Shown here piece after piece: positions 42,689 through 56,411 of a DNA stretch of 64,000 nucleotides (its first letter is position 1; every line of letters starts with the position of its first letter). The position numbers were made by a program, and so were the translations under genes. Under the pieces are notes generated by a model that worked only from the letters and a program-made list of their open reading frames with translations, did no database searches and was not told the origin of the DNA. The stretch covers positions 38 to 64,037 of the forward strand of contig JBJEYJ010000086.1 in NCBI GenBank assembly GCA_051886655.1, given 5' to 3'. This DNA is from Bacilli bacterium. GTDB lineage: Bacteria > Bacillota_I > Bacilli_A > RF39 > UBA660.

Positions 42689-42717
42689 TTGATTAATTAT
42701 AAAAAATATAATATAAT
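42689..42717 (+). promoter_or_regulatory. rightward early promoter (TTGATT, 17 nt, TATAAT)
   Basis: Consensus spacing upstream of the first early gene. Confidence 0.45.
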
Positions 42718-42751
42718 ATATATAGAAAAAAATAAAGGAGTTGATATTATT

Positions 42752-43681
42752 ATGATAATAGATTTTACTTCAACAATAGTAGGAATAATTGGATATATAA
42801 TTATTTTATTCATTCTTGCTATTTTATGTAGTAAAATAGATGCGGGAAACCAGCCTAAAGATGCCATAGAGCGACGTCTCCGCGCCCATTATAAAGAATT
42901 AGAAAAAAGAGGATATGAAATTGTATGTTTATGTTTACAGGGAAGTCAAAACTATGGTTTAGATGAATATTCAAATGAATATCAATCTGATGTAGATTCT
43001 AAAGCTATTGTTTTACCAACATTTAAAGATTTTGTTTATAATAAAAGTCCTGTAAGTACAACGATTGTATTAGATAATAATGAACATATTGATGTAAAAG
43101 ATATTAGAGTTATGTTTGATATGTTTAAAAAAGAAAATATTAGTTATATTGAATTATTATATACAAAATATAAAATTATTAATCCTAAATATAAAAAATA
43201 CATTACTCCAGTCTTTGAGAACCGTGAAGCCATTGCCGCATTAAATACAAATCAATTTGTAAGATGTATTGCTGGCATGAGTATGGAAAAAAGAAAAGCG
43301 CTTTGTCATCCTTATCCAAATTTAATAGAAAAAATAGAAAAATATGGATTTGATGGAAAACAATTAAGTCATTGTGTAAGATTAAACAACTTTTTGTATA
43401 AATATATGAATAATTGCACAATAGCAGATTGTTTTGATGCGGATAGTAAAGAGGAATTAATGAATTATAAAAAACAATTAGTTAAAGATGGTTCTAGAAT
43501 TATGACAAAAGAAGAAGCAATTGAATTATGCGATGCTATGGATCAAAGTACTGCCGCAATGAAAGAACTTATTATAAGTTCGCATGAAGAAAAAATTGAT
43601 TATAATACTATTGATTTTTTAAATAAAATTAAATATAATATTTTAAAGAAAAAATTTAAGGAGGATTTAAAATGGTTATAG
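42752..43681 (+). CDS. Pol-beta-superfamily nucleotidyltransferase-fold protein with an N-terminal TM helix, about 309 aa
   Basis: AAAGGAG RBS then ATG at 42752. GS-x13-SDVD motif (LQGSQNYGLDEYSNEYQSDVD). Hydrophobic N-terminus IVGIIGYIIILFILAIL. TAG stop. Confidence 0.6.
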   Translation: MIIDFTSTIVGIIGYIIILFILAILCSKIDAGNQPKDAIERRLRAHYKELEKRGYEIVCLCLQGSQNYGLDEYSNEYQSDVDSKAIVLPTFKDFVYNKSPVSTTIVLDNNEHIDVKDIRVMFDMFKKENISYIELLYTKYKIINPKYKKYITPVFENREAIAALNTNQFVRCIAGMSMEKRKALCHPYPNLIEKIEKYGFDGKQLSHCVRLNNFLYKYMNNCTIADCFDADSKEELMNYKKQLVKDGSRIMTKEEAIELCDAMDQSTAAMKELIISSHEEKIDYNTIDFLNKIKYNILKKKFKEDLKWL

Positions 43682-43986
43682 TTACATCTAGTCAAATGAG
43701 AGAGAAAACTGAAAATGGTCTTAAAAATAAAGCTAAAGAGACTCTTGAAGTATTGTTGCCTGAGTTAGAAAAAAGTGCGGCGGATGGCAAATATGAGCTA
43801 TTTTATCGCGGAACATTAAATCAAGAAGCAGTTGATATTTTGAAAAGAGCTGGATATAAAGTTAAATATACGAGTGGAGAATTTGATGATTTTGGTAATT
43901 ATTATCAAGGATTCTTTTATATTAATTGGAAAGGGAAAAGAAAATTAAAAACAAAAATTAAGAATTTATTTTGTGGAGGATATTAA
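43672..43986 (+). CDS. hypothetical protein, 104 aa
   Basis: Track ORF. GGAGG RBS. ATG overlaps the upstream stop. Confidence 0.55.
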   Translation: MVIVTSSQMREKTENGLKNKAKETLEVLLPELEKSAADGKYELFYRGTLNQEAVDILKRAGYKVKYTSGEFDDFGNYYQGFFYINWKGKRKLKTKIKNLFCGGY

Positions 43987-44099
43987 TGGATAGTGTTGTT
44001 GCAGCTTTATTAACGATAGCTTGGGCTAGTACCAAAAATAGAGATGTTAGTCAACAAGAAATAAAATCTGTTTATAAGAATATGAAAGATAGTTTGTAA
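43986..44099 (+). CDS. small protein of about 37 aa
   Basis: TAATG overlap with the upstream gene. Translation MDSVVAALLTIAWASTKNRDVSQQEIKSVYKNMKDSL. Confidence 0.3.
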   Translation: MDSVVAALLTIAWASTKNRDVSQQEIKSVYKNMKDSL

Positions 44100-44665
44100 A
44101 ATATGTTATCGTATTTAGATTTTAAAAATGGATTTGGAGATTTTTAAAACGAGGGCAAATTAATTTTCAATATTTAAAAAAATTTTTTCCCAAAACATAC
44201 TCCCCCCAGAAAAAGAAATAAGTACGTTCAGTAGATTAGACAAAATAAAAAAATGCACAATCGCTCAATAGCCCCAGATAAAAAAGATTTAAAATAAAAC
44301 TATTTAAATCTTTTTTCTTTGCTTAATGATGCGATAATCAAATGCGTCGGCTTGCCAGCGGCCAAGGCAAGCCGCTTTGAGGTTAATATAATAGCTTTGC
44401 AAATTTTTTTATAGCTTTCATGCAAACAGATGTTCATGTGATGTTCCTATAACTCAGTTGCATCAAGCACTACAGCTGTTTCCTTACAGTGTCAACAGAT
44501 CCAGATCTACAAGGCGCAAAAAATGAACAAATGTTTACATTCCTTGCAAGCCTTGATACTGTAGGGCTCTAGCTGCTGCCGCAAACATTTGTTTACCTCT
44601 TGTAGAAGTTTACATAATCACTTGCAAATAAAATAAAAAAAAATAAAAAATTTTAATCAAAATGC

Positions 44666-44694
44666 TTGACAAATAAACACAATGGGTGTATAAT
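44666..44694 (+). promoter_or_regulatory. early promoter cassette (TTGACA, 17 nt, TATAAT) preceded by an A/T-tract UP-like element
   Basis: Perfect consensus hexamers with 17-nt spacing. Confidence 0.6.
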
Positions 44695-44726
44695 AAGTAT
44701 GAAGATAAGGAAAGGAGCTGATTGGT

Positions 44727-45044
44727 ATGATAGAGTTACAAATAACACTATTTGATAAGAATAAAAAGTATAAGCCAATGAGTACAATAGTAAAGATAGA
44801 AAGTATTGATTATTACAATACACACAAAGCAGAAGTACAAAAAAGAGCAATAGAGAACATAGCACATCAAAGGAAGATGTTACCAAGTGAGATAATAAAA
44901 GCAGGTTATACACAAGTTAAAACAAGAGTGTATGACAAAGAAAAGATAAAAGAACAACAAGAACTACAACATAAAATAAATTTAATTAAATACATTGAAA
45001 GAAAAAGAGAAGAAAGAAAGGAAAGTGATAATCTATGAGAATAA
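44727..45044 (+). CDS. hypothetical protein of 103 to 105 aa
   Basis: Track ORF. Ends at TGA (45036) that overlaps the next ATG and is followed two codons later by in-frame TAA. Confidence 0.55.
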
Positions 45045-45367
45045 CAAAAGTAATAAAAATGGTAAAAAAAAGTAATGTATTAACAAAGCAAGAGAAAAGA
45101 GGACTAATCATAAAAGGACTAATAGAAACTATAGTCAATGTCTATAAGACTATAGTCAAAGTACCTTTTGCTATAATAGGAATGATACTTGTTACACTTG
45201 AAACACTATTACATACAATAGCAGAAGGAATAGAACTAATAGAACAAGTGTTTAGTTGTATAGTAATACTACTTGACGAGAAATTACCAGAATGTAGTTT
45301 AACAAAAGGTCAAGCAAGAGATAAATTGATAAAAGAAATAAAAACAAACACTTTTAAAGTAAAATAG
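45035..45367 (+). CDS. small membrane protein, 110 aa
   Basis: Track ORF with a hydrophobic core (FAIIGMILVTLETLL). Confidence 0.55.
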   Translation: MRITKVIKMVKKSNVLTKQEKRGLIIKGLIETIVNVYKTIVKVPFAIIGMILVTLETLLHTIAEGIELIEQVFSCIVILLDEKLPECSLTKGQARDKLIKEIKTNTFKVK

Positions 45368-45382
45368 AAAGGGTTGATAAAA

Positions 45383-45550
45383 ATGAAAAAATTTTTAATT
45401 TTAGTTATTTGTTTATTATTAGGATTTATAAGTGGCATTGTTTATACAATAGAAACAATGCAAGTAGACATAGTAAGTGAAACTAGCAAAGGTGCAGTTA
45501 TAAGAATAATAGTATTAAATCAATGGTTTAATCATTATGTAGAAAAATAA
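45383..45550 (+). CDS. small membrane or secreted protein of about 55 aa
   Basis: ATG after GGGTTGATAAAA. Translation MKKFLILVICLLLGFISGIVYTIE... Confidence 0.4.
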   Translation: MKKFLILVICLLLGFISGIVYTIETMQVDIVSETSKGAVIRIIVLNQWFNHYVEK

Positions 45551-45571
45551 AATAAAAAAATAAAAAAACTA

Positions 45572-45600
45572 TTGACAAAATACCTTTTAGGGTGTATAAT
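45572..45600 (+). promoter_or_regulatory. early promoter cassette (TTGACA, 17 nt, TATAAT)
   Basis: Consensus hexamers with an upstream A-tract. Confidence 0.6.
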
Positions 45601-45629
45601 AATTATAGAAAAAGGAAAGGTGATTTAAA

Positions 45630-46106
45630 ATGAAAAAAATATTTTTAGATTTAGATGGAACAGTAGCAAAGTTCAATGTGAGAAATGCTTTAAAAAGATT
45701 TGAAACAGAAAAAGGGTTCTTCGCAAAGTTAGGAGCATACAAAGGAATTGAAAAAATTAATGAAATGGCAAAATGCGGAAATGTTTACATAATTAGTGCA
45801 AGTCCTAATGAACAAGCAGATAGCGACAAAATGGAATGGATAGAAAAATACTTAAATAATGTACCAATGGAAAATAGACTAATTTGCAGATGTGGAGATA
45901 ATAAGGCAGAGTTCTTAAAAGCAAAAGGAATTGAAATTGACAAGAATTGCTACTTATTAGATGATTACACAAAAAACTTAATAGAGTGGGAAGAAGTTGG
46001 CGGAATTGGTATAAAAAGAATTACAAAAGTAGCAGACAATAGCAGAAAACTTTGGAAAGGTTTAGAAGTGAAAAATTTAGGCAACCTAGCAACAGTGGTT
46101 GCCTAA
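45630..46106 (+). CDS. HAD-superfamily 5'(3')-deoxyribonucleotidase-like phosphatase, 158 aa
   Basis: N-terminal FLDLDGTVAKF (DxDGT motif I). Size matches NT5C-type phage dNMP phosphatases. Confidence 0.65.
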   Translation: MKKIFLDLDGTVAKFNVRNALKRFETEKGFFAKLGAYKGIEKINEMAKCGNVYIISASPNEQADSDKMEWIEKYLNNVPMENRLICRCGDNKAEFLKAKGIEIDKNCYLLDDYTKNLIEWEEVGGIGIKRITKVADNSRKLWKGLEVKNLGNLATVVA

Positions 46107-46121
46107 TAGATAGGAGGAAAA

Positions 46122-46325
46122 ATGGAAGAAGTTTATCATTGCAAAAAATGTGGTAAAGAATTAGAGTGGGCTGATACAATAGACCATGAGGGAGGAATAC
46201 AAGAGGGTTACATAATAGAAAGACAAATTTGGACTTGTGAAGATTGCGACACCTCTTATGTAATAGAGCAAAGAGCGGATTTTCAAGAGCAAGATGTATC
46301 AACAATTTATTTTGAAGAAAGTTAA
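46122..46325 (+). CDS. zinc-ribbon protein, 67 aa
   Basis: CKKCGK...CEDCD four-Cys motif. Confidence 0.5.
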   Translation: MEEVYHCKKCGKELEWADTIDHEGGIQEGYIIERQIWTCEDCDTSYVIEQRADFQEQDVSTIYFEES

Positions 46326-46336
46326 TAGATTATGTA

Positions 46337-46364
46337 AACTGCGGCAACCGCAGTTTTTATTTTA
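46337..46364 (+). terminator. rho-independent terminator (AACTGCGG-CAAC-CCGCAGTT plus T-run), itself embedded in an inverted pair of ATTATGTAAAC / GTTTACATAAT
   Basis: Seen directly. Confidence 0.65.
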
Positions 46365-46462
46365 CATAATCTAGGGTAAACTAATTATGTAAACTATTCG
46401 CTGGCGCGCGTGCGGTTGTGGCGCGCCGTTTGACAGTTAACATAATCACTTGCAATAATTTG

Positions 46463-46496
46463 CGAACAAATGTACGCTTTTTCGAACAAATGTTCG
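46463..46496. promoter_or_regulatory. two tandem LexA 'Cheo' boxes: CGAACAAATGTACG (one mismatch) and CGAACAAATGTTCG (perfect Gram-positive SOS box)
   Basis: Firmicutes LexA consensus is CGAAC-N4-GTTCG. Centres are 20 bp apart. Confidence 0.55.
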
Positions 46497-46603
46497 CATC
46501 CCAAAACTCTTGATACTCTAGCGTTTGATCGGATCGCCGCAATCCTTACAGCCTCAAGGCATTGCCGCTCTTGAAAAAAATAAAAATTTTTTTTAAAAAA
46601 TGC

Positions 46604-46632
46604 TTGACAAACAATACAAATGGTAGTATAAT
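46604..46632 (+). promoter_or_regulatory. early promoter cassette (TTGACA, 17 nt, TATAAT)
   Basis: Consensus, with UP-like A/T tracts. Confidence 0.6.
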
Positions 46633-46663
46633 AATTACAGAGTTAAGGAAAGAGGGTATAAAA

Positions 46664-47362
46664 ATGAAAGTTGATAAAAGAAAAAAATATTTAATGGTTT
46701 TAGATGTAGAAACTACAAACAATATTATGGAAAAAGGAGCTCCAAACGATGGTTTGGTTTATGATATAGGTTTTACAATTATTGATAAACAAGGAAACAT
46801 TTACGCAAAAAGAAGTTTTGCAATTAAAGAAATATTTGATTGGAAAGAACTTATGTCTACTGCTTATTATGCTAAAAAATTACCTATTTATTATGAAAGA
46901 CTTAAACAAGGAAAAATGGAAAAGATTACAATTTGGCAAGCAAGAAAAAGAATACACCAAGCAATAGAATACTTTGGAATAAAAGAAGTGTATGCCTACA
47001 ATGCAAATTTTGATTATACAACATTAAATAATACAGTTAGATATTTAAGTGGAAGTGCTTGTCGTTGGTTTTTTCCTTATGGAACACAAATTTGTGATAT
47101 TTGGCACATTGCTTGTCAAACATTATGTCTACAAAAAACTTTCCAATGGGAAAATGTAAGAAATGCAAACAATAATTTAATTACAAATGCAGAAAGAGTG
47201 TTTGGCTATTGTGAACAAACAGATTTTGAAGAAGAACACACAGGGCTAGCCGATGCAATAGTAGAAAGTCAAATTTTAGCAAGATGTTTTAAATCACATA
47301 AAAGCATTGATAAAAAAATAAATAGGGCTTGTTGGAGAATACCACAACAAGCCACTGCCTAA
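46664..47362 (+). CDS. DEDDh-family 3'-5' exonuclease (DnaQ / RNase T-like), about 232 aa
   Basis: Exo I LVLDVETT, Exo II YAYNANFDY and Exo III HTGLADA motifs. RBS AAGGAAAGAGGG. All 6 Trp are TGG. Confidence 0.75.
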   Translation: MKVDKRKKYLMVLDVETTNNIMEKGAPNDGLVYDIGFTIIDKQGNIYAKRSFAIKEIFDWKELMSTAYYAKKLPIYYERLKQGKMEKITIWQARKRIHQAIEYFGIKEVYAYNANFDYTTLNNTVRYLSGSACRWFFPYGTQICDIWHIACQTLCLQKTFQWENVRNANNNLITNAERVFGYCEQTDFEEEHTGLADAIVESQILARCFKSHKSIDKKINRACWRIPQQATA

Positions 47363-47392
47363 AAAAAAAATAAAAATTTTTTTAAAAAAGTA

Positions 47393-47421
47393 TTGACAAA
47401 TAATACAAATGGTAGTATAAT
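47393..47421 (+). promoter_or_regulatory. early promoter cassette (TTGACA, 17 nt, TATAAT)
   Basis: Consensus. Confidence 0.6.
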
Positions 47422-47454
47422 AATTATAGAAGTTAGGAAAGAGGAGGAAAACAA

Positions 47455-47619
47455 ATGAAAGAGTTAGTAAAAAATTTAATAGGTGGAATAATTTTAACAG
47501 GTTTAGTACTAGGGTTCTTCTATTTACTAGGAATAGTAGAAATGATAATAGAAAGACATTTTTGGTTAATGATACCACTAACAATTTATGTAATCTATTT
47601 AATATTAAAAGAAATTTAA
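47455..47619 (+). CDS. small membrane protein of about 54 aa
   Basis: GAGGAGG RBS. Two predicted TM segments. Not in the track because it is shorter than 60 aa. Confidence 0.45.
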   Translation: MKELVKNLIGGIILTGLVLGFFYLLGIVEMIIERHFWLMIPLTIYVIYLILKEI

Positions 47620-47628
47620 AAAAAAGTA

Positions 47629-47657
47629 TTGACAAATATTAAAAAATAGAATATAAT
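47629..47657 (+). promoter_or_regulatory. early promoter cassette
   Basis: TTGACA, 17 nt, TATAAT. Confidence 0.55.
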
Positions 47658-47684
47658 ATAATAAAGAAAGGGAAGGTGATAACA

Positions 47685-47915
47685 ATGATAACTTTTAAGT
47701 CAATAACAGTTTTAAAGTTAATCCAAGAAAAACTTTTTAATCAAACAGAGGATTTTGAAGAAGAATATTACTTTATTGTAAATGATATTTTCTTTCCTAT
47801 TCAAGAAATATTTGTTTTTGAAGGTGGGATAGAAGTAAAAAATACATCTTATGATATAGACATTGAAATAAAAGCAAATGAAAAAGACTTGATCTGGAAA
47901 AAAGAAGAAGAATAA
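47685..47915 (+). CDS. hypothetical protein of about 76 aa
   Basis: GGAAGGTG RBS then ATG. Confidence 0.5.
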   Translation: MITFKSITVLKLIQEKLFNQTEDFEEEYYFIVNDIFFPIQEIFVFEGGIEVKNTSYDIDIEIKANEKDLIWKKEEE

Positions 47916-47941
47916 AAAATAAAAATTTTTTCAAAAAAGTA

Positions 47942-47970
47942 TTGACAAACAAAAGAAAAAGTAGTATAAT
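47942..47970 (+). promoter_or_regulatory. early promoter cassette
   Basis: TTGACA, 17 nt, TATAAT, followed by a long structured leader. Confidence 0.55.
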
Positions 47971-48058
47971 AAAAGTACAATAAGGGTAGGGTAAAAAGTT
48001 GATAATAACCTACGGTAGCAACTCATAAATAAAATTTTTGAAAGGTTAGGTGGTAGTT

Positions 48059-48427
48059 ATGGCAAACAAAGTAACTAAAAAAGAAAGATTTATGGAGTTA
48101 TTAAACATTAGAGAGGTAGCAGAAAATGCGGAAATGGTAGAGTTCATTAATCACGAACTAGAACTATTAAATAAAAAAAGTGCAAAAAGTGGTATGACAG
48201 CAAATCAAAAAGTAAATGAAGGACTAAAAGAGGTTATTACAGAACATTTAAAACTAGCAGGAAGAGCAATGACAATTACAGAACTACAAAGCGAAATTAA
48301 AGAAATTGCAGAATTAAGTAATCAAAAAGTAAGTGCATTACTAACACAACTTGTAAATACTAATGTAATCATTAGAGAGAAAGACAAAAAGACAACATTG
48401 TTCAAATACAACGATGAACAAATATAG
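48059..48427 (+). CDS. paralog family A member 1: small protein with a C-terminal winged-helix-like region (regulator?)
   Basis: Shares ELELL.KK.AKSGMTANQKVNE and a C-terminal SNQK.SALL..LV.T...KDKK.T.F block with 50242..50607 (plus strand) and 55363..55719 (minus strand). Confidence 0.6.
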   Translation: MANKVTKKERFMELLNIREVAENAEMVEFINHELELLNKKSAKSGMTANQKVNEGLKEVITEHLKLAGRAMTITELQSEIKEIAELSNQKVSALLTQLVNTNVIIREKDKKTTLFKYNDEQI

Positions 48428-48556
48428 ATAGAGGGCGAAAGCCCTTTATTTTTATGTTAAGTGCAGAAACAGATGTTTGGTTTCCAGTATGCAACTGATT
48501 ATGTAAACCAAAATTTTGTTCGCCGGCGCGTCGTGGATTGTGACGCGCCGTTTGAC

Positions 48557-48570
48557 AGAACAGTTGTTCG
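48557..48570. promoter_or_regulatory. LexA Cheo box AGAACAGTTGTTCG (perfect GAAC-N4-GTTC core)
   Basis: Intergenic, next to a GTTTACATAAT motif. Confidence 0.5.
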
Positions 48571-48630
48571 GTTTACATAATTTTTTTTCCAATTTTTTCC
48601 AGTTTACATAATCTGTTGACTCCTAAAACT

Positions 48631-48642
48631 GAACATCTGTTC
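48631..48642. promoter_or_regulatory. LexA Cheo box GAACATCTGTTC (perfect core)
   Basis: Lies 70 bp upstream of an early promoter -35. Confidence 0.5.
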
Positions 48643-48710
48643 ATACTAAATCTCGCAGATCAGCTTGGGAGTAAGGATCGCCGCATTATAAAGAATTTTT
48701 TAAAAAAATG

Positions 48711-48739
48711 CTTGACAAACACGCTATAAAGTAGTATAA
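48711..48739 (+). promoter_or_regulatory. early promoter cassette
   Basis: TTGACA, 17 nt, TATAAT. Confidence 0.6.
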
Positions 48740-48758
48740 TAATTATAGTAAAGGAAAG

Positions 48759-49223
48759 GTGATACAAATGAACTTGATTAAAAAATTTTATGTTAAACAA
48801 TTCGTACATTCTATTGATAAAAATATTAAAGTTAAATTTGGAAAAAATTTACAATGCGACATAGAAAATCAAACAATTTATGTAACTAATAAAACTGATA
48901 AAATAGATATTCAAACTTTTAAAGAGTATGTAAGAGAATTGAATAGTAAATGTTTTTTTAATACTTTTATTTTAGGAATATTACACGAAATAGGACATAT
49001 TTACACTTATGATGAAAGAGATGAGGAAGAATATTTTAGAGATAACGAACTATTAACACTACTTTTTCAAGAGAAAAAAATTGATGCCGTAGATTTTAAT
49101 AAATTCTATCTAAGATTAGAAATGGAGAAAAAAGCAACTCAATGGGCTATTGATTTTTCAATGTTAAATAAAGATTTTTGTAAAAAATATCAAAAAAAAT
49201 TAGGCAAAGAAATTTATAAATAG
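48759..49223 (+). CDS. HExxH metallopeptidase-like protein (ImmA/IrrE/DUF955-like?), 154 aa
   Basis: GILHEIGHIYTYDERDEEE: an HEIGH zinc-binding motif in a protein of about 150 aa, the size of ImmA-type anti-repressor proteases. Confidence 0.5.
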   Translation: MIQMNLIKKFYVKQFVHSIDKNIKVKFGKNLQCDIENQTIYVTNKTDKIDIQTFKEYVRELNSKCFFNTFILGILHEIGHIYTYDERDEEEYFRDNELLTLLFQEKKIDAVDFNKFYLRLEMEKKATQWAIDFSMLNKDFCKKYQKKLGKEIYK

Positions 49224-49226
49224 GGG

Positions 49227-49255
49227 TTGACAAAAGCCCCTAACTATGTTATAAT
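49227..49255 (+). promoter_or_regulatory. early promoter cassette
   Basis: TTGACA, 17 nt, TATAAT. Confidence 0.55.
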
Positions 49256-49281
49256 AGTATTATAGAAAGGAAGATGTAAAA

Positions 49282-49500
49282 ATGAGAAAAGATATTTTTA
49301 AAAATGCTAATCAAGTAAGAGCAACAGCCGAAGACTATAATGCAAAATGTTGTAAAAGATATAAAGGACAAGGAAAAATATTAAGAAGATACGCAAGACA
49401 CAAATTAAATGAACATGATAAAGAAGAAATAAGACAGGTATTAGCATTTCAAAAAAATATAAATTTTTACAAAATTAAAAAGGAAAGGAATTGATAATTA
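49282..49500 (+). CDS. basic small protein of about 71 aa
   Basis: Track ORF. Ends TGA then TAA (TGATAA). Confidence 0.45.
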
Positions 49501-49838
49501 TGAAAAAAGAACCAATGCAAATTTTGTATATTTTAAGAAATGGAGAAACAAATCAGTATAAAATAGGAATTACAGATAATCTAAATAGAAGATTATCTCA
49601 ACTACAAACTGGTTGTCCAGAAGAATTACAGATAATTAAATTATGGAAACATTATCAAAGAAACATAGTCAAAAGATATGAAAGAGTGTTGCATAGATAT
49701 TTTACAAAATGTGGTTGTAGAATAAGACCAAATGGAGAATGGTTTAATTTAAAACAAGTTGATATAAATTATTTATGTAAACCAAATACAATAGCAGAAC
49801 AAAATGAGATAATAGAAAATTTATTAGAAATGATGTAA
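49500..49838 (+). CDS. GIY-YIG / T5orf172-type domain protein, about 112 aa
   Basis: ILYILRNGETNQYKIGITDNLNRRLSQ matches the Y..L....-YKIG.T.N...R pattern. Confidence 0.5.
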   Translation: MKKEPMQILYILRNGETNQYKIGITDNLNRRLSQLQTGCPEELQIIKLWKHYQRNIVKRYERVLHRYFTKCGCRIRPNGEWFNLKQVDINYLCKPNTIAEQNEIIENLLEMM

Positions 49839-49872
49839 AGTGCGGGCTTCCGCACTTTTTCTACATAACTCT

Positions 49873-49990
49873 AGAACAAATGTTTCCACGAACGATCGTT
49901 TGGAGCCCGTTTCGCAGGTTTACATAATAACTTAACATTTTTCATTATGAAAAATTATTTTCAGATCGAACATTTGTACTCCTAAAACTC
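49873..49990. promoter_or_regulatory. cluster of three one-mismatch Cheo-like boxes (AGAACAAATGTTTC, CGAACGATCGTTTG, CGAACATTTGTACT) interleaved with GTTTACATAAT motifs
   Basis: Intergenic region upstream of the double promoter at 50045 to 50164. Confidence 0.35.
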
Positions 49991-50044
49991 GTCGCAGTTT
50001 ACATAATGTATTGCAAATAAAATAAAAATTTTTTTTAAAAAGTA

Positions 50045-50073
50045 TTGACTTTTTATAATAATTATAGTATAAT
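50045..50073 (+). promoter_or_regulatory. promoter (TTGACT, 17 nt, TATAAT)
   Basis: First promoter of a tandem pair. Confidence 0.5.
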
Positions 50074-50135
50074 AATTATAGTCAAAAGGAAATAGAAAAT
50101 CTTAAAAATTAATTTTAAGAAATTTTAAAAAACTC

Positions 50136-50164
50136 TTGACAAACAAAACAAAAAATGTTATAAT
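50136..50164 (+). promoter_or_regulatory. promoter (TTGACA, 17 nt, TATAAT)
   Basis: Second promoter of the tandem pair. Its leader contains a GAAC..GTTC hairpin. Confidence 0.55.
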
Positions 50165-50241
50165 AATTATAACAAAGGAAGATAAAAAACCTTGAGAACT
50201 TCCTGTAAAGGTTCATAAAAATAAAAATAAAAAATTGAAAG

Positions 50242-50607
50242 GTGGAATGTATTATGGCAAACAAAAAAACAAAAAGAGAATTATTTGGAGAAATCAGAGA
50301 AATTGTAGTAGGAAATGAAGAACTTGTAAACTTCATAGACCACGAATTAGAACTATTAGACAAGAAACACGCAAAAAGTGGAATGACAGCAAATCAAAAA
50401 GTAAATGCTGAAATAGTTGACAAATTATACAGTGCATTAGTTGAAGTTGAAACAGCCCTAACAATAAATGAAATCCAAGAACAATTTGATTTTACCAAAG
50501 AATTAAGTAATCAAAAAATAAGTGCATTATTAAAGAAATTAGTTGATACTGGAAAAGTTGAAAGAATAAAAGACAAAAAAGTTACAAGATTTCAAGCAAT
50601 AGTATAG
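50242..50607 (+). CDS. paralog family A member 2, 121 aa
   Basis: See 48059..48427. C-terminus is SNQKISALLKKLVDTGKVERIKDKKVTRF. Confidence 0.6.
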   Translation: MECIMANKKTKRELFGEIREIVVGNEELVNFIDHELELLDKKHAKSGMTANQKVNAEIVDKLYSALVEVETALTINEIQEQFDFTKELSNQKISALLKKLVDTGKVERIKDKKVTRFQAIV

Positions 50608-50661
50608 AGTAAGGGGCAAATGCCCCTACTCAAAAAAAAATAAAATTTTTTCAAAATACTA

Positions 50662-50690
50662 TTGACAAATTTTCTCAATAGTAGTATAAT
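50662..50690 (+). promoter_or_regulatory. early promoter cassette
   Basis: TTGACA, 17 nt, TATAAT. Confidence 0.55.
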
Positions 50691-50714
50691 AATAATAGAA
50701 AAGGAGTTGATAGT

Positions 50715-51125
50715 ATGATAGTAAAAATTAAAAATAAGGAAGTAAAAATTCCAGAAGAAGAAATTAAAAAGAATATGAAAATACTTGACATAACAGAAGA
50801 AGAAGCAATACAAATGTATTTAGAAGATGAAGGTTATGAGGTTAATGAAGAAGTAGAAAAGTTGACTAAAAAGGCAAAAGAAAATAATATAAAAATAAGG
50901 GGCGACAGTGATAAACCTAGAGCCAAGCGAAATATAGAACGCAAAACAAATCCAGTTAAAGAAGAAGTTATACAAATATTAGCACAGACACTAGCAAATT
51001 ATGGAAACCTTAATATTCATAATGTAAAAGTGGAAAATATTGGAAAACTTATTACTTTTAATGTAGGAGAGCGTCAATTCAAACTAGATTTAATAGAAAA
51101 AAGACCTCCAAAAGCCTCAAAATAG
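50715..51125 (+). CDS. paralog family B member 1, 136 aa
   Basis: Shares LTKKAKEN...DKPRAKR...NIGKLI.F...KLDLI with 54038..54439 on the minus strand. Confidence 0.6.
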   Translation: MIVKIKNKEVKIPEEEIKKNMKILDITEEEAIQMYLEDEGYEVNEEVEKLTKKAKENNIKIRGDSDKPRAKRNIERKTNPVKEEVIQILAQTLANYGNLNIHNVKVENIGKLITFNVGERQFKLDLIEKRPPKASK

Positions 51126-51353
51126 GGCTTTTTACAAAAGAAAAAGGCTAAAAGGCTTGAAAAATCTTGTCTTTTGGTTGAAAATGGCGGAAATGAGCGA
51201 ATAATCGCTCATTTTTTCGCGTTTTAGGCGAACTTTTGTTTAAATTTACATAAAATAATGTAAATTTTTGTAAAAAATGGTTGAAAGTGTTGCGGCTGTA
51301 GGGATTTAGCAGGTTTACATAATTTGCCGGCTCGGCGTGGAGCGCCTTTGAGC

Positions 51354-51367
51354 CGAACACGCGTTCT
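51354..51367. promoter_or_regulatory. LexA Cheo box CGAACACGCGTTCT
   Basis: Perfect GAAC-N4-GTTC core in a long non-coding region. Confidence 0.45.
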
Positions 51368-52032
51368 AAAATACCTATATGCGATTTTTTCGTAGGTTTT
51401 GGGCTTTATGCTCTTTTTCTCTAGCTTCCTGAAACCTCTTAGGTTTACATAATAACTTTACAGGCGCGATTCCAGATTCTTTTAACCTACATCCGCGCAA
51501 TATGCAAAATTGCCATAGTTTCAGGCTTCTTTATGACTTGATTTTTTTAAAAATTTTTGATATAATACTAAAAAAACTTAAAATATTGCCGCATAAAACC
51601 AAAAATAAAGTTGACATTTTAAGCCAACTTTTTTCTTTAAAATCATTCTCATGCTTTCATATTTGCCCCATCTACTTTTAACTAAAATTTTAAACAAAAG
51701 CAAATGTATCTGCCTAATAAAAAATTTTACTTCCATCTCTATACTTTAACTAACTGGGGGCCGCGCTCTTTTTAAGGACAGACTTTCCATTATATCATCT
51801 TTATTATATTATATCAAATTTTTTATAAAATATCAACTTTAATAAAATTTGCCACAATTTTTTAAATTATTTTCCTTGATCCTTCCTATTTCACATGAGT
51901 GCAATAGTCAAGCAAAATGAGAAGCAAAATAATATCTCTAACTTTTACAAATTAAAAAAAGAAGAAAAAAATATTCTTTTCTTTTATTGCGGAGACGGAG
52001 ATACGAGGATCTGTTAACCCAGGTCGCCGCAT

Positions 52033-53508: not shown

Positions 53509-53588
53509 TTTTTTATCTCTCCTCTCAATAATATATAAATTTTTTACTAATTAAATATTACAAAATTAACCAAATGTCATAAAAAATT

Positions 53589-53646
53589 TTGTAACATTTT
53601 TTTCCGCCCATAGAAATAATATTATGGGCGGAAAAAAATGTTACAA
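53589..53646. repeat. 58-bp near-perfect palindrome: 24-bp arms TTGTAACATTTTTTTCCGCCCATA and its reverse complement, separated by a 10-bp spacer
   Basis: Seen directly. Confidence 0.8.
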
Positions 53647-53860
53647 AATAATAAAAGTAATAGGCGGTTGGGGGAACCTCCATATCCGAGCTTCGCTCTC
53701 CATGGAGTCACCCAACCGATAGGTAGGTAAGAGTAATCCGTAAAAAGTATATTTAGTTTCGTTTTTTCGTTAGATAAAGATTTTTTTAAAAGTAGCTTTT
53801 TTTTATATGATGCGGCAATTCTTGCTCTATGGCCCGCCTAATCGAGTTCCCGCATAATAA
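53640..53860 (-). ncRNA. GC-rich structured non-coding island with a long imperfect hairpin (CGGTTGGG...CCCAACCG); candidate ncRNA
   Basis: No ORF. Local GC is much higher than background. Nested stems. Shares a GGAACTCG(A)TTAGG motif with 55160..55362. Confidence 0.3.
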
Positions 53861-53863: not shown

Positions 53864-54031
53864 GGACTAATTGTCCCTTATAATAACCTTATCAGATTTA
53901 AAGAAATTTCTTATAATCTTTTCAGCTTCGCTTTTATCTATTTCTATAATATATTCTCCACCGTCATAATATCCTGCATATTTATGGATATCTATTAAAT
54001 TTTTCGTTTCTTCTATTTGATTAAAATTATA
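53864..54031 (-). CDS. small protein of about 55 aa
   Basis: AAAGGAGGAAATAGGGG then TTG start. Translation MYNFNQIEETKNLIDIHKYAGYYDGGEYIIEIDKSEAEKIIRNFFKSDKVIIRDN. Confidence 0.35.
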
Positions 54032-54037
54032 CAACCC

Positions 54038-54439
54038 CTATTTCCTCCTTTGAATTAAATCTAATTTATATTTATTACCGTCACATTCAAATTCTATAAG
54101 TTTACCAATATTAGTTATTTTTAAATGTTCTACACCATCTAAATTAGTTAGCATTTGAGCAACTGCGGCAATTATTCTTTCTTTTGTTGGATTTTCCTTT
54201 CTAGTAACTTCTCTCTTTGCTCTTGGCTTATCTTCAGCTTTTGCTTCATGAATTGTTGCGGTAATCCTATTTTCTTTTGCTTTTTTAGTTAATCTTTCTT
54301 CTTGTTCATTTTTAATATAATCATTATCGGCTAACCATGTATCTATGGCTTCTTGCATTGATATTTCAAGAGTATCAACTAATCTATCTATTTCCTCATC
54401 TGGAATTTCAATTATTTTATTTTCAAATTTATATTTCAT
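54038..54439 (-). CDS. paralog family B member 2, 133 aa
   Basis: See 50715..51125. Driven by a TTGACT, 17 nt, TGaTATAAT promoter near 54470. Confidence 0.6.
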   Translation of the reverse strand: MKYKFENKIIEIPDEEIDRLVDTLEISMQEAIDTWLADNDYIKNEQEERLTKKAKENRITATIHEAKAEDKPRAKREVTRKENPTKERIIAAVAQMLTNLDGVEHLKITNIGKLIEFECDGNKYKLDLIQRRK

Positions 54440-54605
54440 AAATAACCACCCTTCCTTTTTATTATTTATATAATAATTATATCATATTTTTTTTAAAAAG
54501 TCAATAGACAGGTTAAACCTATACACCAAAAATTTTTAAGGAGCGGCAACCGATGGTATATAGATACATTACTCACGAATAAAAAAGCGACATACATGCC
54601 GCCAG

Positions 54606-54917
54606 CTATTTATTAAATAATACTGTATTATATATTGAAGTTAAATATTGTTTTCCATCTTTACTCTTGATCTTAATTTTACCATCGTCTAAACTATTCC
54701 AAGTATCAACGTCAACTTCTATATATTCACTTCCTATTGTTATATATGCTTTTGTATATAATGTATTTACATTTGTCATATCCATATTACTTGTCATAGA
54801 TGGCGGAACCACTATAATATATGCTATTCCTCCAATAAGTATAAAAACTACTAATGCTATTGCAATAATTCCAATTGCATCTAACACATCATAATACATT
54901 CTAATTAACCTCCTCAT
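54606..54917 (-). CDS. membrane protein, 103 aa
   Basis: TM segment IIAIALVVFILIGGIAYIIVV. Confidence 0.55.
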   Translation of the reverse strand: MRRLIRMYYDVLDAIGIIAIALVVFILIGGIAYIIVVPPSMTSNMDMTNVNTLYTKAYITIGSEYIEVDVDTWNSLDDGKIKIKSKDGKQYLTSIYNTVLFNK

Positions 54918-55104
54918 ACATAATCAATAAAGTTAAGTATATTCCAGTTTCAGTCTTCTTTTCTATAATATTATCTTCTATTGTTGTAACAATAGTATCT
55001 GTACTCATTTTTATATCTATAATCTTTTTATCTAGCATCCATTTATTGATAACATCTTTTGCTTTAACATCATTTGGTGCTATTGTAAAATATTCTATTT
55101 TCAT
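54901..55104 (-). CDS. hypothetical protein of about 67 aa; start at MKIEY...
   Basis: Track ORF 54901..55155, with an internal ATG preceded by AAAGAAAGGAATG. Confidence 0.45.
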   Translation of the reverse strand: MKIEYFTIAPNDVKAKDVINKWMLDKKIIDIKMSTDTIVTTIEDNIIEKKTETGIYLTLLIMYEEVN

Positions 55105-55159
55105 ATTTTCATTCCTTTCTTTAATAAATAAGAGATAGAATGATTCCCCGCTCATCCTA

Positions 55160-55362
55160 TCTCTACCTAAGTTTGTGCTACTTGGGAAGCTGTTCTTTAT
55201 TTATCCTCGCATCCCCTAACGAGTTCCTATATTTTACTAGCTGTAACACTAGGAGGCTTTTACTATCGGTTAGAGACCATACCTCAACGGTATTATTTAT
55301 ACTCGACTCAAGTGTCCGCAGACCTTAAGCCCCGAGTTAGAGTGCGGCAATCGCCGCATCTC
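55160..55362 (-). ncRNA. GC-rich structured 3' region between two genes (GCGGCGATTGCCGC hairpin and others, ending in an 8-bp-stem terminator-like hairpin); candidate ncRNA
   Basis: About 200 nt with no ORF. GC content far above background. Shares a motif with 53640..53860. Confidence 0.3.
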
Positions 55363-55719
55363 TTATTCACTCTCTTTTATAGAGAATAATGTAACCTTTT
55401 TGTCTTTTACTCTTACTACTCTATTAGTATCTACTAATTTCTTTAAAAGAGCAGACATTTTTTGATTTGAGAAATCAGCTATTGTTTCATCTTCAGCTTG
55501 GATTTCAGCAACAGTAGCAGGTTTTCCTAATCTTGCTAATGCTTCATATACAACTTCTACTAATCCTTCATTTTCTTTTTGTGTTTTTGTTTGAGCAAAT
55601 TTTCTATTTGCTAATCTTTCAATTTCTTTTTCGCAGAATTCTACTGCTCCTTGTTCTCCAGCCTCAACAGCTAAATCTCTTAAAACTCCTAAATAATCTT
55701 TTTTTGTCATTTTTTCCAT
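55363..55719 (-). CDS. paralog family A member 3, 118 aa
   Basis: C-terminus SNQKMSALLKKLVDTNRVVRVKDKKVTLF. Preceded by two tandem TTGATT, 17 nt, TATAAT promoters (55773..55801 and 55858..55886). Confidence 0.6.
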   Translation of the reverse strand: MEKMTKKDYLGVLRDLAVEAGEQGAVEFCEKEIERLANRKFAQTKTQKENEGLVEVVYEALARLGKPATVAEIQAEDETIADFSNQKMSALLKKLVDTNRVVRVKDKKVTLFSIKESE

Positions 55720-55857
55720 AATAAATCACCTCATTTAACCTTTCTTTATATTTTTATTTTTTCTATACTTATATTATATAATAATTTTTTTATATAATCA
55801 ATTATTATTTCTTTAAGGTGCATAGAAACCTTTTTTTCTTTTTCTTTTGTTAATATA

Positions 55858-55886
55858 ATTATATAATATTTTTTTTATATAATCAA
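55858..55886 (-). promoter_or_regulatory. module-2 promoter (TTGATT, 17 nt, TATAAT on the minus strand)
   Basis: One copy of a roughly 45-bp cassette repeated at least 11 times. Confidence 0.5.
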
Positions 55887-55899
55887 CTTAGTGGTACTT

Positions 55900-56376: not shown

Positions 56377-56382
56377 ATATAT

Positions 56383-56411
56383 ATTATATAATAATTTTTA
56401 AAAATTATCAA
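56383..56411 (-). promoter_or_regulatory. module-2 promoter (TTGATA, 17 nt, TATAAT)
   Basis: Seen directly. Confidence 0.5.

What the first reader, a model, noticed from the sequence alone, without database searches (positions are those of the whole stretch)
46463..51367. Gram-positive LexA (Cheo) boxes GAAC-N4-GTTC are concentrated in the early intergenic regions
Perfect cores occur at 46483 (CGAACAAATGTTCG, the textbook Bacillus-type box), 48557, 48631 and 51354. One-mismatch copies occur at 46463, 44525, 49873, 49888 and 49975, with two in tandem at 46463 to 46496. About 0.4 perfect cores are expected by chance in 64 kb at this base composition. All copies lie upstream of early promoters. 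This implies early transcription is wired to the host SOS response or to a phage LexA-like repressor. It also argues for a Firmicutes host, since most Mollicutes lack LexA.
Basis: partly seen in the sequence, partly recalled or inferred. Interest (0 to 1): 0.75.

Follow-up and report, generated by a model that had tools for sequence, protein, structure and literature searches.

The report
LexA-type boxes in phage early spacers
Between its early genes, an uncultivated gut phage carries clusters of short DNA words identical to the docking sites of host proteins (the SOS repressor LexA and the chromosome recombinase XerD), which suggests it reads or manipulates its host's state, much as phage phi29 does with Spo0A and ParB.

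Summary
Four perfect GAAC-N4-GTTC cores (0.23 expected) and ten GAAC-N4-GTT(C/T) sites all lie at 44.4-51.4 kb. Nine of the ten are in five GC-richer non-coding spacers of a plus-strand early module. Positions that were not searched for also match the LexA consensus (A/R at 6, T/Y at 9). Several copies equal the experimentally bound C. difficile recA operator core. Relatives share the motif, including a distant one with about one consensus box per spacer, but two lineages lack it.

The boxes lie 70-250 bp upstream of the ten consensus sigma-A promoters, not on them. Only two weaker promoter-like sites overlap boxes.

The boxes are one part of composite spacers. The dominant word there is GTTTACATAAT (11 copies, 0.16 expected), the XerD-binding arm of dif, and it often abuts a box with no gap. 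A sister phage carries perfect parS sites instead of boxes.

My best reading is that the spacers dock host DNA-binding proteins, with LexA as one client. The closest analogues are phi29 and GIL01. No LexA/S24, XerD or integrase gene was found in the sequence held. The host is probably a standard-code Firmicute, likely Clostridia. Binding remains untested.

The parts
42689..51125 (+). Early module of small genes that are compatible with the standard genetic code. It includes a nucleotidyltransferase-like gene, an NT5C/HAD 5'-nucleotidase, an exonuclease-like gene (phrog_20187), a T5orf172/MUG113 gene and two winged-helix paralogues.
44290..44665 (.). Spacer A (35% GC). LexA-type boxes at 44423-44436 (CAAACAGATGTTCA) and 44524-44537 (TGAACAAATGTTTA), a degenerate box at 44582-44595, and one XerD-arm word at 44608-44618.
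46326..46603 (.). Spacer B (39% GC). Contains an intrinsic terminator inside a palindrome flanked by XerD-arm words (46326-46373), a second palindrome with a GC hairpin (46381-46449), and tandem boxes.
46463..46476 (.). LexA-type box CGAACAAATGTACG (1 mismatch).
46483..46496 (.). Perfect 14-bp LexA-type box CGAACAAATGTTCG.
46430..46459 (+). Auxiliary sigma-A-like promoter TTGACA-18-AATAAT (11/12). The two boxes at 46463 and 46483 lie just downstream of it, in a GIL01-like geometry.
48428..48711 (.). Spacer C (37% GC). Terminator at 48426-48451, a degenerate box at 48466-48479, a 90-nt imperfect palindrome at 48495-48584, and a box at 48630-48643.
48495..48584 (.). Long imperfect palindrome. 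Order: XerD-arm word (minus strand, 48498), box-like CAAAATTTTGTTCG (48509), 10-bp GC hairpin, box AGAACAGTTGTTCG (48557-48570), XerD-arm word (plus strand, 48571). RNA fold z-score -5.7.
48552..48581 (+). Auxiliary sigma-A-like promoter TTGACA-18-CATAAT (11/12). Its spacer is filled by the box at 48557-48570, and its -10 lies inside the XerD-arm word.
48630..48643 (.). LexA-type box TGAACATCTGTTCA (perfect 12-bp core), 82 bp upstream of the -35 at 48712.
49839..50044 (.). Spacer D (32% GC). Terminator near 49841-49860, boxes at 49873-49886 (AGAACAAATGTTTC), 49889-49902 (CGAACGATCGTTTG) and 49967-49980 (CGAACATTTGTACT), and XerD-arm words at 49918 and 49997.
51126..51620 (.). Spacer E (34% GC), at the end of the plus-strand module. 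Boxes at 51229-51242 (CGAACTTTTGTTTA) and 51354-51367 (CGAACACGCGTTCT), a GC hairpin at 51329-51354, and XerD-arm words at 51313 and 51443.
44608..51453 (.). Eleven exact copies of GTTTACATAAT, the reverse complement of the XerD arm of dif (ATTATGTAAAC). Plus-strand copies: 44608, 45783 (inside the HAD gene), 48571, 48602, 49918, 49997, 51313, 51443. Minus-strand copies: 46329, 46384, 48498.
   Evidence: (0.16 expected)
44666..50690 (+). Ten 12/12 TTGACA-17-TATAAT promoters with A/T-rich upstream tracts. Their -35 starts are 44666, 45572, 46604, 47393, 47629, 47942, 48712, 49227, 50136 and 50662. No box overlaps any of them. Six carry the palindrome TATAAT-A-ATTATA.
48059..48427 (+). Winged-helix DNA-binding protein, paralogue 1. 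It is a candidate phage-encoded binder of a spacer or promoter palindrome.
50254..50607 (+). Winged-helix DNA-binding protein, paralogue 2.

Best explanation
The GAAC-N4-GTT(C/T) palindromes are genuine Firmicutes/Clostridia-type LexA operator sequences, kept by selection in the non-coding spacers between the transcription units of the phage's early module. They most likely dock the host's LexA dimer.

They are not the switch for the ten strong early promoters, because they do not overlap them. They are one component of composite spacers. The universal component of those spacers is the XerD-binding arm of dif (GTTTACATAAT), which often abuts a box with zero gap. In a sister phage the partner component is consensus parS.

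I therefore read the spacers as docking platforms for host DNA-binding proteins that are already present when the DNA enters the cell. Locally, LexA occupancy would gate weak auxiliary promoters (46430-46459 with two boxes just downstream, 48552-48581 with a box in its spacer). It would also sit just behind upstream terminators, so that DNA damage (LexA cleavage) changes transcription across unit boundaries. In effect this is an SOS-sensing add-on rather than a master switch.

Shown: motif identity, enrichment, localisation, conservation, geometry and the co-motifs. Inferred: binding by LexA and XerD, the host clade, and every functional consequence.
For: Enrichment and confinement to the spacers:
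- 4 perfect cores against 0.23 expected.
- 10 Clostridial-type sites, all at 44.4-51.4 kb.
- 14-mer with at most 1 mismatch: 5 against 0.086 expected. Ten of 13 hits fall in 2.6% of the window, P 3e-14.

LexA-likeness beyond the searched bases, from 82 instances:
- Position 6 is A in 70% and R in 85%.
- Position 9 is T in 76% and Y in 87%.
- The centre is unconstrained.
- Mismatches are only G-to-A at position 2 and C-to-T at position 13.

Published operators:
- B. subtilis consensus CGAAC(n)4GTTCG.
- Clostridial GAAC-N4-GTTT/C on lexA, recA, ruvC and uvrB, and the SPR-validated recA operator AGAACAAATGTTTG.

Conservation:
- L002 has 14 copies with at most 1 mismatch against 0.083 expected. 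L004 has 5 against 0.08. L001 has 12 with at most 2 mismatches against 1.3.
- In the orthologous spacer upstream of the exonuclease gene, a box is kept in L002/L005 and shifted in L001.
- Distant relative L026 (proteins 25-38% identical) has 11 near-perfect (A/C)GAACATATGTTCG boxes, about one per spacer.

Composite architecture:
- 13 boxes abut GTTTACATAAT with gap 0.
- GTTTACATAAT occurs 11 times against 0.16 expected.
- It equals the XerD arm of B. subtilis dif and of many other dif sites.
- It forms tandem arrays in Clostridia chromosomes, 26 of 50 of them upstream of an operon encoding a XerD-like recombinase.
- The sister contig L003/L010 has 2 perfect and 3 near-perfect parS sites in its spacers.

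Promoter geometry: two 11/12 promoters overlap or precede boxes, as at GIL01 P1, where LexA binds two sites downstream of the start.

Precedent for host-factor sites on a lytic Firmicutes phage: phi29 carries Spo0A boxes and five parS sites.
Against: - No binding data exist, and the host is unknown.
- The boxes lie 82-247 bp upstream of the strong -35 hexamers, an unusual place for a repressor.
- The -35 of the auxiliary promoter in spacer B is not conserved in L001 or L002.
- Two related lineages (L003, L011) show no enrichment of the motif, so it is dispensable.
- Many copies carry CAAAC or GTTTG half-sites, which may bind LexA weakly.
- Some boxes are halves of long inverted repeats, so part of the count could reflect palindrome architecture.
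- The phage encodes multi-copy winged-helix proteins that could be the true binders.
- The XerD-arm reading rests on sequence identity and genomic context only.
Confidence: 0.5

Rival explanations
1. Host LexA, or a phage LexA-like repressor, directly represses the early promoters, so early transcription is SOS-inducible. This would be a GIL01-like lysogeny or carrier switch.
For: - The boxes are confined to the early module.
- Tandem boxes lie just downstream of a promoter-like site at 46430-46459, and a box fills the spacer of the site at 48552-48581. This geometry is similar to GIL01 P1.
Against: - None of the ten 12/12 promoters that actually precede the genes is overlapped by a box. Distances to them are 82-247 bp.
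- In L026 the boxes lie 130-190 bp upstream of the promoters, directly after terminators.
- No S24/LexA-like, CI-like or integrase gene was found in the sequence held.
- The strong promoters carry a different palindrome, TATAAT-A-ATTATA.
Confidence: 0.12
2. The palindromes are operators for phage-encoded dimeric winged-helix proteins (48059-48427, 50254-50607 and their paralogues). These proteins either mimic or compete with LexA specificity. Host LexA is not the functional partner.
For: - Two to four paralogues of this winged-helix family sit in the same module in every relative.
- The confident model (pLDDT 85) has a winged-helix DNA-binding fold resembling ArsR, PadR, MarR and a plasmid centromere-binding protein.
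- A 14-bp palindrome suits a dimer.
- The partner palindromes are lineage-specific (boxes, parS-like, or none), as expected for fast-evolving phage regulators.
Against: - It requires two independent exact coincidences with host consensus sites: a perfect 14-bp Cheo box with the right R/Y preferences, and perfect 16-bp parS sites.
- The family is present in L003, which lacks boxes.
- The fold search gives no specific link to the LexA DNA-binding domain.
Confidence: 0.18
3. The sites act in trans as decoys. Ten to 26 high-affinity LexA sites per genome, plus 11-19 XerD arms or parS sites, are multiplied by replication. They titrate the host proteins, which induces SOS and disturbs dimer resolution, SMC handling and segregation as part of host takeover.
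For: - The arrays are dense. L002 has 5 boxes in about 150 bp and 26 copies with at most 2 mismatches.
- Site positions are not tied to promoters.
- Three different host chromosome-maintenance proteins are targeted across the clade.
- The sites lie in a module that resembles host-takeover modules.
Against: - It is pure inference. Copy numbers of LexA, XerD and ParB in the host are unknown.
- The zero-gap box/XerD-arm composite and the one-box-per-spacer regularity suggest a cis role.
- I know of no precedent for phage DNA acting as a LexA sponge, and none turned up in the searches.
Confidence: 0.15
4. The boxes are by-products of a repeated, recombinogenic or structural spacer element: long inverted repeats, terminators and cassette-shuffling junctions. 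They have no protein partner of their own.
For: - Spacers share several words and GC hairpins with compensatory changes.
- The box halves at 48517-48522 and 48558-48563 pair within a 90-nt palindrome with z-score -5.7.
- Gene order between spacers differs among relatives.
- The 82-nt promoter repeats occur 8 times.
Against: - The central N4 and the flanks differ between copies, while the LexA-contact positions are kept.
- Most boxes are not inside long palindromes.
- The same 14-mer is kept in L026, whose spacers are otherwise different.
- A 4-bp stem with a 4-nt loop has no structural value of its own.
Confidence: 0.08

Closest known systems
Gram-positive LexA operator (Cheo/SOS box), including the Clostridial variant GAAC-N4-GTTT
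   Same: The 14-bp palindrome is CGAACA-NN-TGTTCG, with R at position 6 and Y at position 9. GTTT variants occur as on C. difficile lexA, recA and ruvC. GAACAAATGTTT is identical to the core of the C. difficile recA operator.
   Different: The boxes are clustered in phage intergenic spacers. They mostly lie 80-250 bp upstream of the nearest strong promoter, or just after terminators, rather than on promoter cores. Many abut a XerD-arm word.
Phage GIL01 dinBox1/dinBox1b (host LexA as phage repressor, assisted by gp7)
   Same: It is a Firmicutes phage that uses host-type LexA boxes. Two adjacent boxes lie just downstream of a promoter, as in spacer B at 46430-46496.
   Different: GIL01 is a small temperate tectivirus whose key lytic promoter is LexA-controlled. 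Here the phage is roughly 140 kb and resembles Herelleviridae, its main early promoters are box-free, and it has many boxes. No gp7-like partner was identified.
Phage phi29 Spo0A boxes and parS sites (a lytic phage exploiting host DNA-binding proteins for spore entrapment)
   Same: Consensus sites for host chromosomal proteins are placed on a lytic-type Firmicutes phage genome near early promoters. The sister phage L003 carries perfect parS sites.
   Different: The clients here are LexA and probably XerD rather than Spo0A. 0A boxes are not enriched in the window. The sites do not overlap the main promoters. No phenotype is known.
XerD-binding arm of dif and the XerD binding sites (XDS) that unload SMC in B. 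subtilis
   Same: GTTTACATAAT is the reverse complement of ATTATGTAAAC, found in B. subtilis dif (ACTTCCTAGAATATATATTATGTAAACT) and in many other dif sites. Isolated arms without a XerC arm resemble XDS, whose existence is cited. The XDS motif itself is recalled from memory only.
   Different: There is no XerC-type arm 6-8 bp away, so these are not recombination-competent dif sites (flanks). The words occur as 13-bp tandems, as inverted pairs around hairpins, and fused to LexA boxes.
SPO1-type host-takeover module and T4-type promoter/stem-loop (PeSL) cassettes (recalled from memory, not tested)
   Same: A run of co-oriented, near-identical strong sigma-A promoters each drives one or a few small genes. 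Repeated promoter-plus-hairpin units sit between variable gene cassettes.
   Different: To my knowledge those systems are not described as carrying arrays of host LexA, XerD or ParB sites.

Membership tests
Firmicutes LexA operator (Cheo/SOS box) | 14-bp inverted repeat CGAAC-N4-GTTCG (Clostridia: GAAC-N4-GTTT/C). | tested here: met
   There is 1 perfect 14-mer, 5 copies with at most 1 mismatch, and 10 GAAC-N4-GTTY sites.
Firmicutes LexA operator (Cheo/SOS box) | Purine at position 6 and pyrimidine at position 9, with an unconstrained centre. | tested here: met
   Position 6 is R in 85% and position 9 is Y in 87% of 82 instances. These positions were not part of the search pattern. The reference consensus CGAACRNRYGTTYC is recalled from memory.
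Firmicutes LexA operator (Cheo/SOS box) | Overlaps or immediately follows the core promoter it represses. | tested here: inconclusive
   This holds for two 11/12 promoter-like sites (46430-46459, 48552-48581). It does not hold for any of the ten 12/12 promoters. There are no TSS data.
Firmicutes LexA operator (Cheo/SOS box) | Bound by LexA, with expression induced on RecA-stimulated LexA cleavage. | not testable with these tools
   This needs EMSA, SPR or ChIP, plus SOS-induction experiments.
Firmicutes LexA operator (Cheo/SOS box) | The host encodes LexA with this specificity. | not testable with these tools
   The host was not identified. A Clostridia/Firmicutes host is inferred. Clostridial LexA uses this motif.
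dif site (XerC/XerD recombination site) | XerD arm TTATGTAAAC(T). | tested here: met
   There are 11 exact copies of its reverse complement against 0.16 expected.
dif site (XerC/XerD recombination site) | A XerC-type arm in inverted orientation, 6-8 bp from the XerD arm. | tested here: not met
   The flanks of 118 copies show ...ATAAT-aaCTTtAC... and no TTATG/TTCTAGG-type arm. The words are therefore isolated XerD arms and not dif sites.
phi29-type exploitation of host DNA-binding proteins | Consensus sites for host chromosomal proteins on a lytic-type phage genome, near early promoters. | tested here: met
   LexA-type boxes and XerD arms occur in the window. Perfect parS sites occur in sister contig L003/L010.
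phi29-type exploitation of host DNA-binding proteins | Host-state-dependent suppression of the lytic cycle, or use of host segregation machinery (spore entrapment). | not testable with these tools
   No cultured phage-host pair is available.
GIL01-type LexA-governed temperate switch | A temperate or episomal lifestyle with LexA as the maintenance repressor and a small LexA co-factor. | tested here: inconclusive
   No integrase, CI or S24 gene was found in the window or the loci held. Only about 64 kb of a genome of roughly 140 kb was seen, and small ORFs are uncharacterised.

The most novel reading that the evidence does not exclude
In this clade of TGA-recoded phages, the early-module spacers are arrays of docking sites for host chromosome-maintenance proteins. 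The XerD arm is the universal component. A LexA box or a parS site is the lineage-specific partner.

The arrays would work on the host or on the phage chromosome as a whole, through one or more of three routes:
- They tether or segregate the incoming genome, giving a carrier state or spore entrapment as in phi29.
- They control loading (parS) and unloading (XerD) of SMC on phage DNA.
- They titrate LexA, XerD and ParB to trigger SOS and arrest the host cell cycle.

This would be a DNA-encoded, protein-free layer of host takeover.
Probability: 0.3. Interest if true: 0.85.

Novelty: new variant of a known kind. Interest (0 to 1): 0.68.

Why it matters
Host LexA boxes are known on temperate elements such as GIL01 and CTXphi, and host Spo0A and ParB sites are known on phi29. 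This case is different in four ways:
- The phage is large, resembles Herelleviridae and recodes a stop codon.
- It comes from a gut community.
- It carries regular arrays of LexA-type operators fused to XerD-arm words at every boundary of its early transcription units.
- A sister lineage has swapped the boxes for perfect parS sites.

If the sites are bound as predicted, lytic-type phages of Clostridia read or manipulate the host's SOS status and chromosome-handling machinery through non-coding DNA alone.

The finding also gives directly testable reagents: 14-25-bp sites with purified LexA, XerD and ParB. In addition, it offers a sequence signature (GTTTACATAAT arrays) for finding such modules and for inferring Firmicutes hosts of uncultivated phages.

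Tried and rejected
- Structured RNAs: Rfam found no family at gathering score in the window. In 42-54 kb it found only a sub-threshold palindrome hit. ARAGORN found no tRNA. I therefore did not pursue the spacers as known RNA genes.
- Close relatives: a nucleotide search of GenBank phages with 44.1-51.7 kb found nothing close.
- Literature on GTTTACATAAT: a full-text search returned only primers, but those primers carried B. subtilis dif, which gave the XerD-arm lead.
- GTTTACATAAT as a promoter for the phage sigma-like factor (41596-42573): rejected. The word is absent from the other 57 kb, occurs in 13-bp tandems and inverted pairs, and is abundant in Clostridia chromosomes and in unrelated viral contigs.
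- Full dif sites: no XerC arm is present.
- Other host-factor boxes: DnaA and Spo0A boxes are not enriched in the spacers.
- LexA and XerD homologues: tblastn in genetic codes 11 and 4 gave no XerD hit. It gave only a weak hit of the LexA C-terminal domain to 54038-54439. I rejected that hit because there is no PDB homologue and no Ser-Lys dyad in the alignment.
- Winged-helix paralogues: the fold is a generic winged helix with no specific link to the LexA DNA-binding domain. Homologues are all unannotated metagenomic proteins.
- Failed or unavailable steps: two shuffle-based scripts timed out and were replaced by an analytic first-order Markov expectation. The paper describing XDS (PMC7897262) is not held, so the XDS motif itself could not be compared.

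Full report
**1. Observation**

- The four perfect GAAC-N4-GTTC cores are at 46484, 48558, 48631 and 51355. That is 4 against 0.23 expected, and none of 100 dinucleotide shuffles reached 4.
- With one mismatch allowed there are 26 matches against 10.35 expected.
- Clostridial LexA operators are defined as GAAC-N4-GTTT or GTTC. By that definition there are ten distinct sites. All lie between 44424 and 51366, and nine are non-coding.
- For the 14-mer CGAAC-N4-GTTCG, five sites have at most one mismatch against 0.086 expected.
- Ten of the 13 sites with at most two mismatches lie in five spacers covering 2.6% of the window (P 3e-14). Measured against the spacers' own composition, the count is 10 against 0.38 expected.

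**2. Setting**

- The sites lie in a plus-strand module at 42.7-51.1 kb, between minus-strand regions.
- The module has ten perfect TTGACA-17-TATAAT promoters with A/T-rich upstream tracts, most of them within an 82-nt repeat family.
- These promoters drive small genes: an NT5C/HAD nucleotidase, an exonuclease-like protein, a T5orf172/MUG113 protein and two winged-helix paralogues.
- Five GC-richer spacers (32-39% GC against 27% for the genome) separate groups of genes.
- A sigma-factor-like gene lies next to the module.
- Structural genes on the minus strand are readable only if TGA is a sense codon, whereas the early genes contain none. That argues for a standard-code host.
- The nearest cultured relatives are Enterococcus Herelleviridae at 47-48% amino-acid identity.
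- Metagenomic relatives sit on contigs of 118-144 kb.
- The same phage occurs in several sequencing runs and in an ENA scaffold labelled XIAO16.

**3. Is it a LexA box?**

- I collected 82 instances from the window and six related loci. Positions that were not part of the search pattern follow the LexA consensus. Position 6 is A in 70% (purine in 85%). Position 9 is T in 76% (pyrimidine in 87%). The two central positions are near background.
- Mismatches at position 2 are only G-to-A, and at position 13 only C-to-T.
- The B. subtilis consensus is CGAAC(n)4GTTCG.
- C. difficile lexA, recA and ruvC use GAAC-N4-GTTT. The recA operator that binds LexA in SPR is AGAACAAATGTTTG. Its core GAACAAATGTTT occurs at 44525 and 49874.
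- At the sequence level, membership is therefore met. Binding cannot be tested here.

**4. Conservation**

- L002/L005 has 14 copies with at most 1 mismatch against 0.083 expected.
- L004 has 5 against 0.08.
- L001 has 12 with at most 2 mismatches against 1.3.
- L003 and L011 show no enrichment.
- In the orthologous spacer upstream of the exonuclease gene, the second box is kept in L002/L005 and displaced in L001.
- A much more distant relative, L026, has proteins 25-38% identical and 37% GC. It carries eleven near-perfect (A/C)GAACATATGTTCG boxes in 11.5 kb. There is about one per spacer, 10-15 nt after the upstream terminator and 130-190 bp before the next consensus promoter.
- The motif is therefore old and selected, but dispensable in some lineages.

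**5. Position relative to promoters**

- No box overlaps any of the ten 12/12 promoters. Distances to the next -35 are 82-247 bp.
- Two weaker sigma-A-like sites (11/12) do overlap boxes. The first, TTGACA(46430)-18-AATAAT(46459), is followed at once by the tandem boxes at 46463 and 46483. That geometry resembles GIL01 P1, where LexA binds two sites downstream of the start. The second, TTGACA(48552)-18-CATAAT(48581), has its spacer filled by the box at 48557.
- The -35 of the first site is not conserved in L001 or L002.
- Six of the strong promoters instead carry their own palindrome, TATAAT-A-ATTATA. It is a better candidate operator for early shut-off.

**6. The boxes are not alone**

- The most enriched word in the spacers is GTTTACATAAT. 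The window has 11 exact copies against 0.16 expected, ten of them in spacers and on both strands.
- Each related locus has 13-19 copies.
- Thirteen boxes abut this word with zero gap, forming CGAACAnnTGTTyG|GTTTACATAAT.
- Inverted pairs of the word flank GC hairpins and terminators. They form long imperfect palindromes at 48495-48584 (z -5.7) and 46326-46373 (z -8.3).
- The GC hairpin shows compensatory differences between relatives.

**7. What GTTTACATAAT is**

- Its reverse complement, ATTATGTAAAC, is the XerD-binding arm plus one central base of B. subtilis dif, ACTTCCTAGAATATATATTATGTAAACT. It is also found in many other dif sites.
Most of these were Lachnospiraceae, Oscillospiraceae and other Clostridia. 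My estimate of the chance expectation is about 8. Because the scan was truncated, it is not a census.
- In 26 of 50 tight tandems, the downstream operon encodes a membrane protein of about 210 aa. In L123 that protein is followed by a XerD-like recombinase and RuvC. This arrangement suggests XerD autoregulation.
- A cluster of the word also lies between dapA-like and dapB-like genes (my reading of the ORFs) in a Lachnospiraceae MAG.
- No XerC-type arm follows the word in the phage. These are isolated XerD arms, not dif sites.
- In B. subtilis, XerD bound at dedicated sites unloads SMC. The paper describing those sites is not held.

**8. A sister phage carries parS**

- Contig L003/L010 has almost no Cheo boxes. 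It has two perfect and three near-perfect copies of TGTTTCACGTGAAACA in its early spacers. I recognise this sequence from memory as the canonical Firmicutes parS.
- Across the clade, the spacers therefore carry consensus sites for at least three host chromosomal proteins. It is unlikely that both partner palindromes match host consensus sites by chance.

**9. Candidate phage binders**

- The window and the loci held contain no S24/LexA-like, XerD-like or integrase gene.
- A weak LexA C-terminal hit to 54038-54439 was rejected.
- The module does encode a multi-copy winged-helix family with two to four paralogues per phage. Its homologues are all unannotated metagenomic proteins, and its fold is a generic winged helix.
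- These proteins remain the main rival binders.

**10. Interpretation**

- Most likely (about 0.5): the boxes dock host LexA as one client of composite host-protein docking spacers. Locally, LexA would gate auxiliary promoters and unit boundaries. This would be an SOS-sensing add-on, not the master switch of early transcription.
- The closest working analogues are phi29, which carries host Spo0A boxes and five parS sites for spore entrapment, and GIL01.
- Rivals are direct SOS control of early promoters (0.12), phage winged-helix operators (0.18), trans-acting decoys (0.15), and by-products of repeat architecture (0.08).

**11. Novelty and score**

- LexA boxes on phages, and host-factor sites on lytic phages, are already known kinds.
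- Three features are new: regular arrays at every early transcription-unit boundary of a large recoded phage, fusion of the boxes to XerD arms, and lineage-specific replacement by parS.
- I rate it a new variant of a known kind, with interest 0.68.
- The most novel reading not excluded is a DNA-encoded layer of host takeover or genome tethering acting through LexA, XerD and ParB. I give it probability 0.3 and interest 0.85 if true.

Noticed in passing
window 1700-42600 (- strand) versus 42689-51125 and 54000-63000: There is stop-codon recoding. With TGA read as sense, the structural genes fuse into long ORFs. For example, 17839-26244 becomes 2801 aa with 25 in-frame TGA and 4 TGG, and 13058-17737 becomes 1559 aa. 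Codons in ORFs of at least 100 codons rise from 16950 to 25573. Early genes and the 56-63 kb genes have no in-frame TGA and use TGG. No tRNA gene is in the window.
   Followed up: partly
window 44688-50172 (-10 regions of the strong promoters): Six of the ten consensus promoters carry the palindrome TATAAT-A-ATTATA, centred on the -10/+1 region (0.047 expected). It is a candidate operator for shut-off of the strong early promoters, possibly by the winged-helix paralogues.
   Followed up: no
L003 11899, 11929, 14017, 14310 (= L010 3192, 3222, 5310, 5603): The sister phage contig IMGVR_UViG_3300031867_000007 has two perfect and three near-perfect copies of the parS consensus TGTTTCACGTGAAACA in its early spacers. 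It has almost no LexA-type boxes.
   Followed up: partly
L083-L202 (bacterial genome contigs), e.g. L123 3358-3381, L145 6440-6610: Tandem GTTTACATAAT arrays with periods of 13-22 bp are widespread in Lachnospiraceae and Oscillospiraceae chromosomes. In 26 of 50 tight tandems they precede an operon whose first gene encodes a ~210-aa membrane protein, followed in L123 by a XerD-like recombinase and RuvC. This looks like XerD autoregulation or XDS-like clusters, and I do not know of a published description.
   Followed up: partly
L013-L082 (viral contigs), e.g. L023, L044, L056, L129, L137: The same 11-bp word forms direct-repeat arrays of 3-9 copies in many viral contigs, and similar arrays occur in bacterial MAG loci L129 and L137. 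Most of the viral contigs share no detectable early-module protein with this phage, and their GC content ranges from 24% to 64%. The arrays look like iterons or centromeres and may share a host factor.
   Followed up: no
window 45783-45793; L001 11046; L002 7274: One exact GTTTACATAAT lies inside the HAD/NT5C gene, encoding N-V-Y-I-I. It is conserved at the nucleotide level in orthologues that are 74-78% identical in protein.
   Followed up: no
window 46499, 48621, 49980, 44188; also L001, L002, L003 and L004 spacers: A further spacer word, TCC(C/T)A(A/T)AAC, recurs next to boxes and XerD-arm words. It loosely resembles the CodV/XerC arm TTCCTAGAA of B. subtilis dif but is in the wrong orientation for a dif site. 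It remains unexplained.
   Followed up: partly
window 46403-46429, 48523-48551, 51329-51354; alignment A1: The GC-rich hairpins inside the spacers differ between relatives by compensatory changes (GGCGCGC...GCGCGCC against CGGCTCG...CGAGCCG). Their loops are rich in GTGG/GCGTG. Their function is unknown.
   Followed up: partly
window 50715-51125 (+) and 54038-54439 (-): Two paralogous genes of about 135 aa sit in inverted orientation around a largely non-coding stretch (51.1-54.0 kb). That stretch contains spacer E and a near-perfect palindrome of about 62 nt at 53586-53649, which gave sub-threshold Rfam mir-3747 hits on both strands.
   Followed up: no
L026 1939-10951: The spacers of this distant relative have a strict grammar: terminator, LexA-type box, GC segment, CACTTTAGC...TAAAG repeats, TTGTTAA-N(0-6)-TTAACAA palindrome, A/T tract, consensus promoter.
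   Followed up: partly
window 62385-62957 and 49500-49838: There is an HNH endonuclease-like gene and a free-standing T5orf172/MUG113 (GIY-YIG-related) gene. Either could be a homing endonuclease.
   Followed up: no
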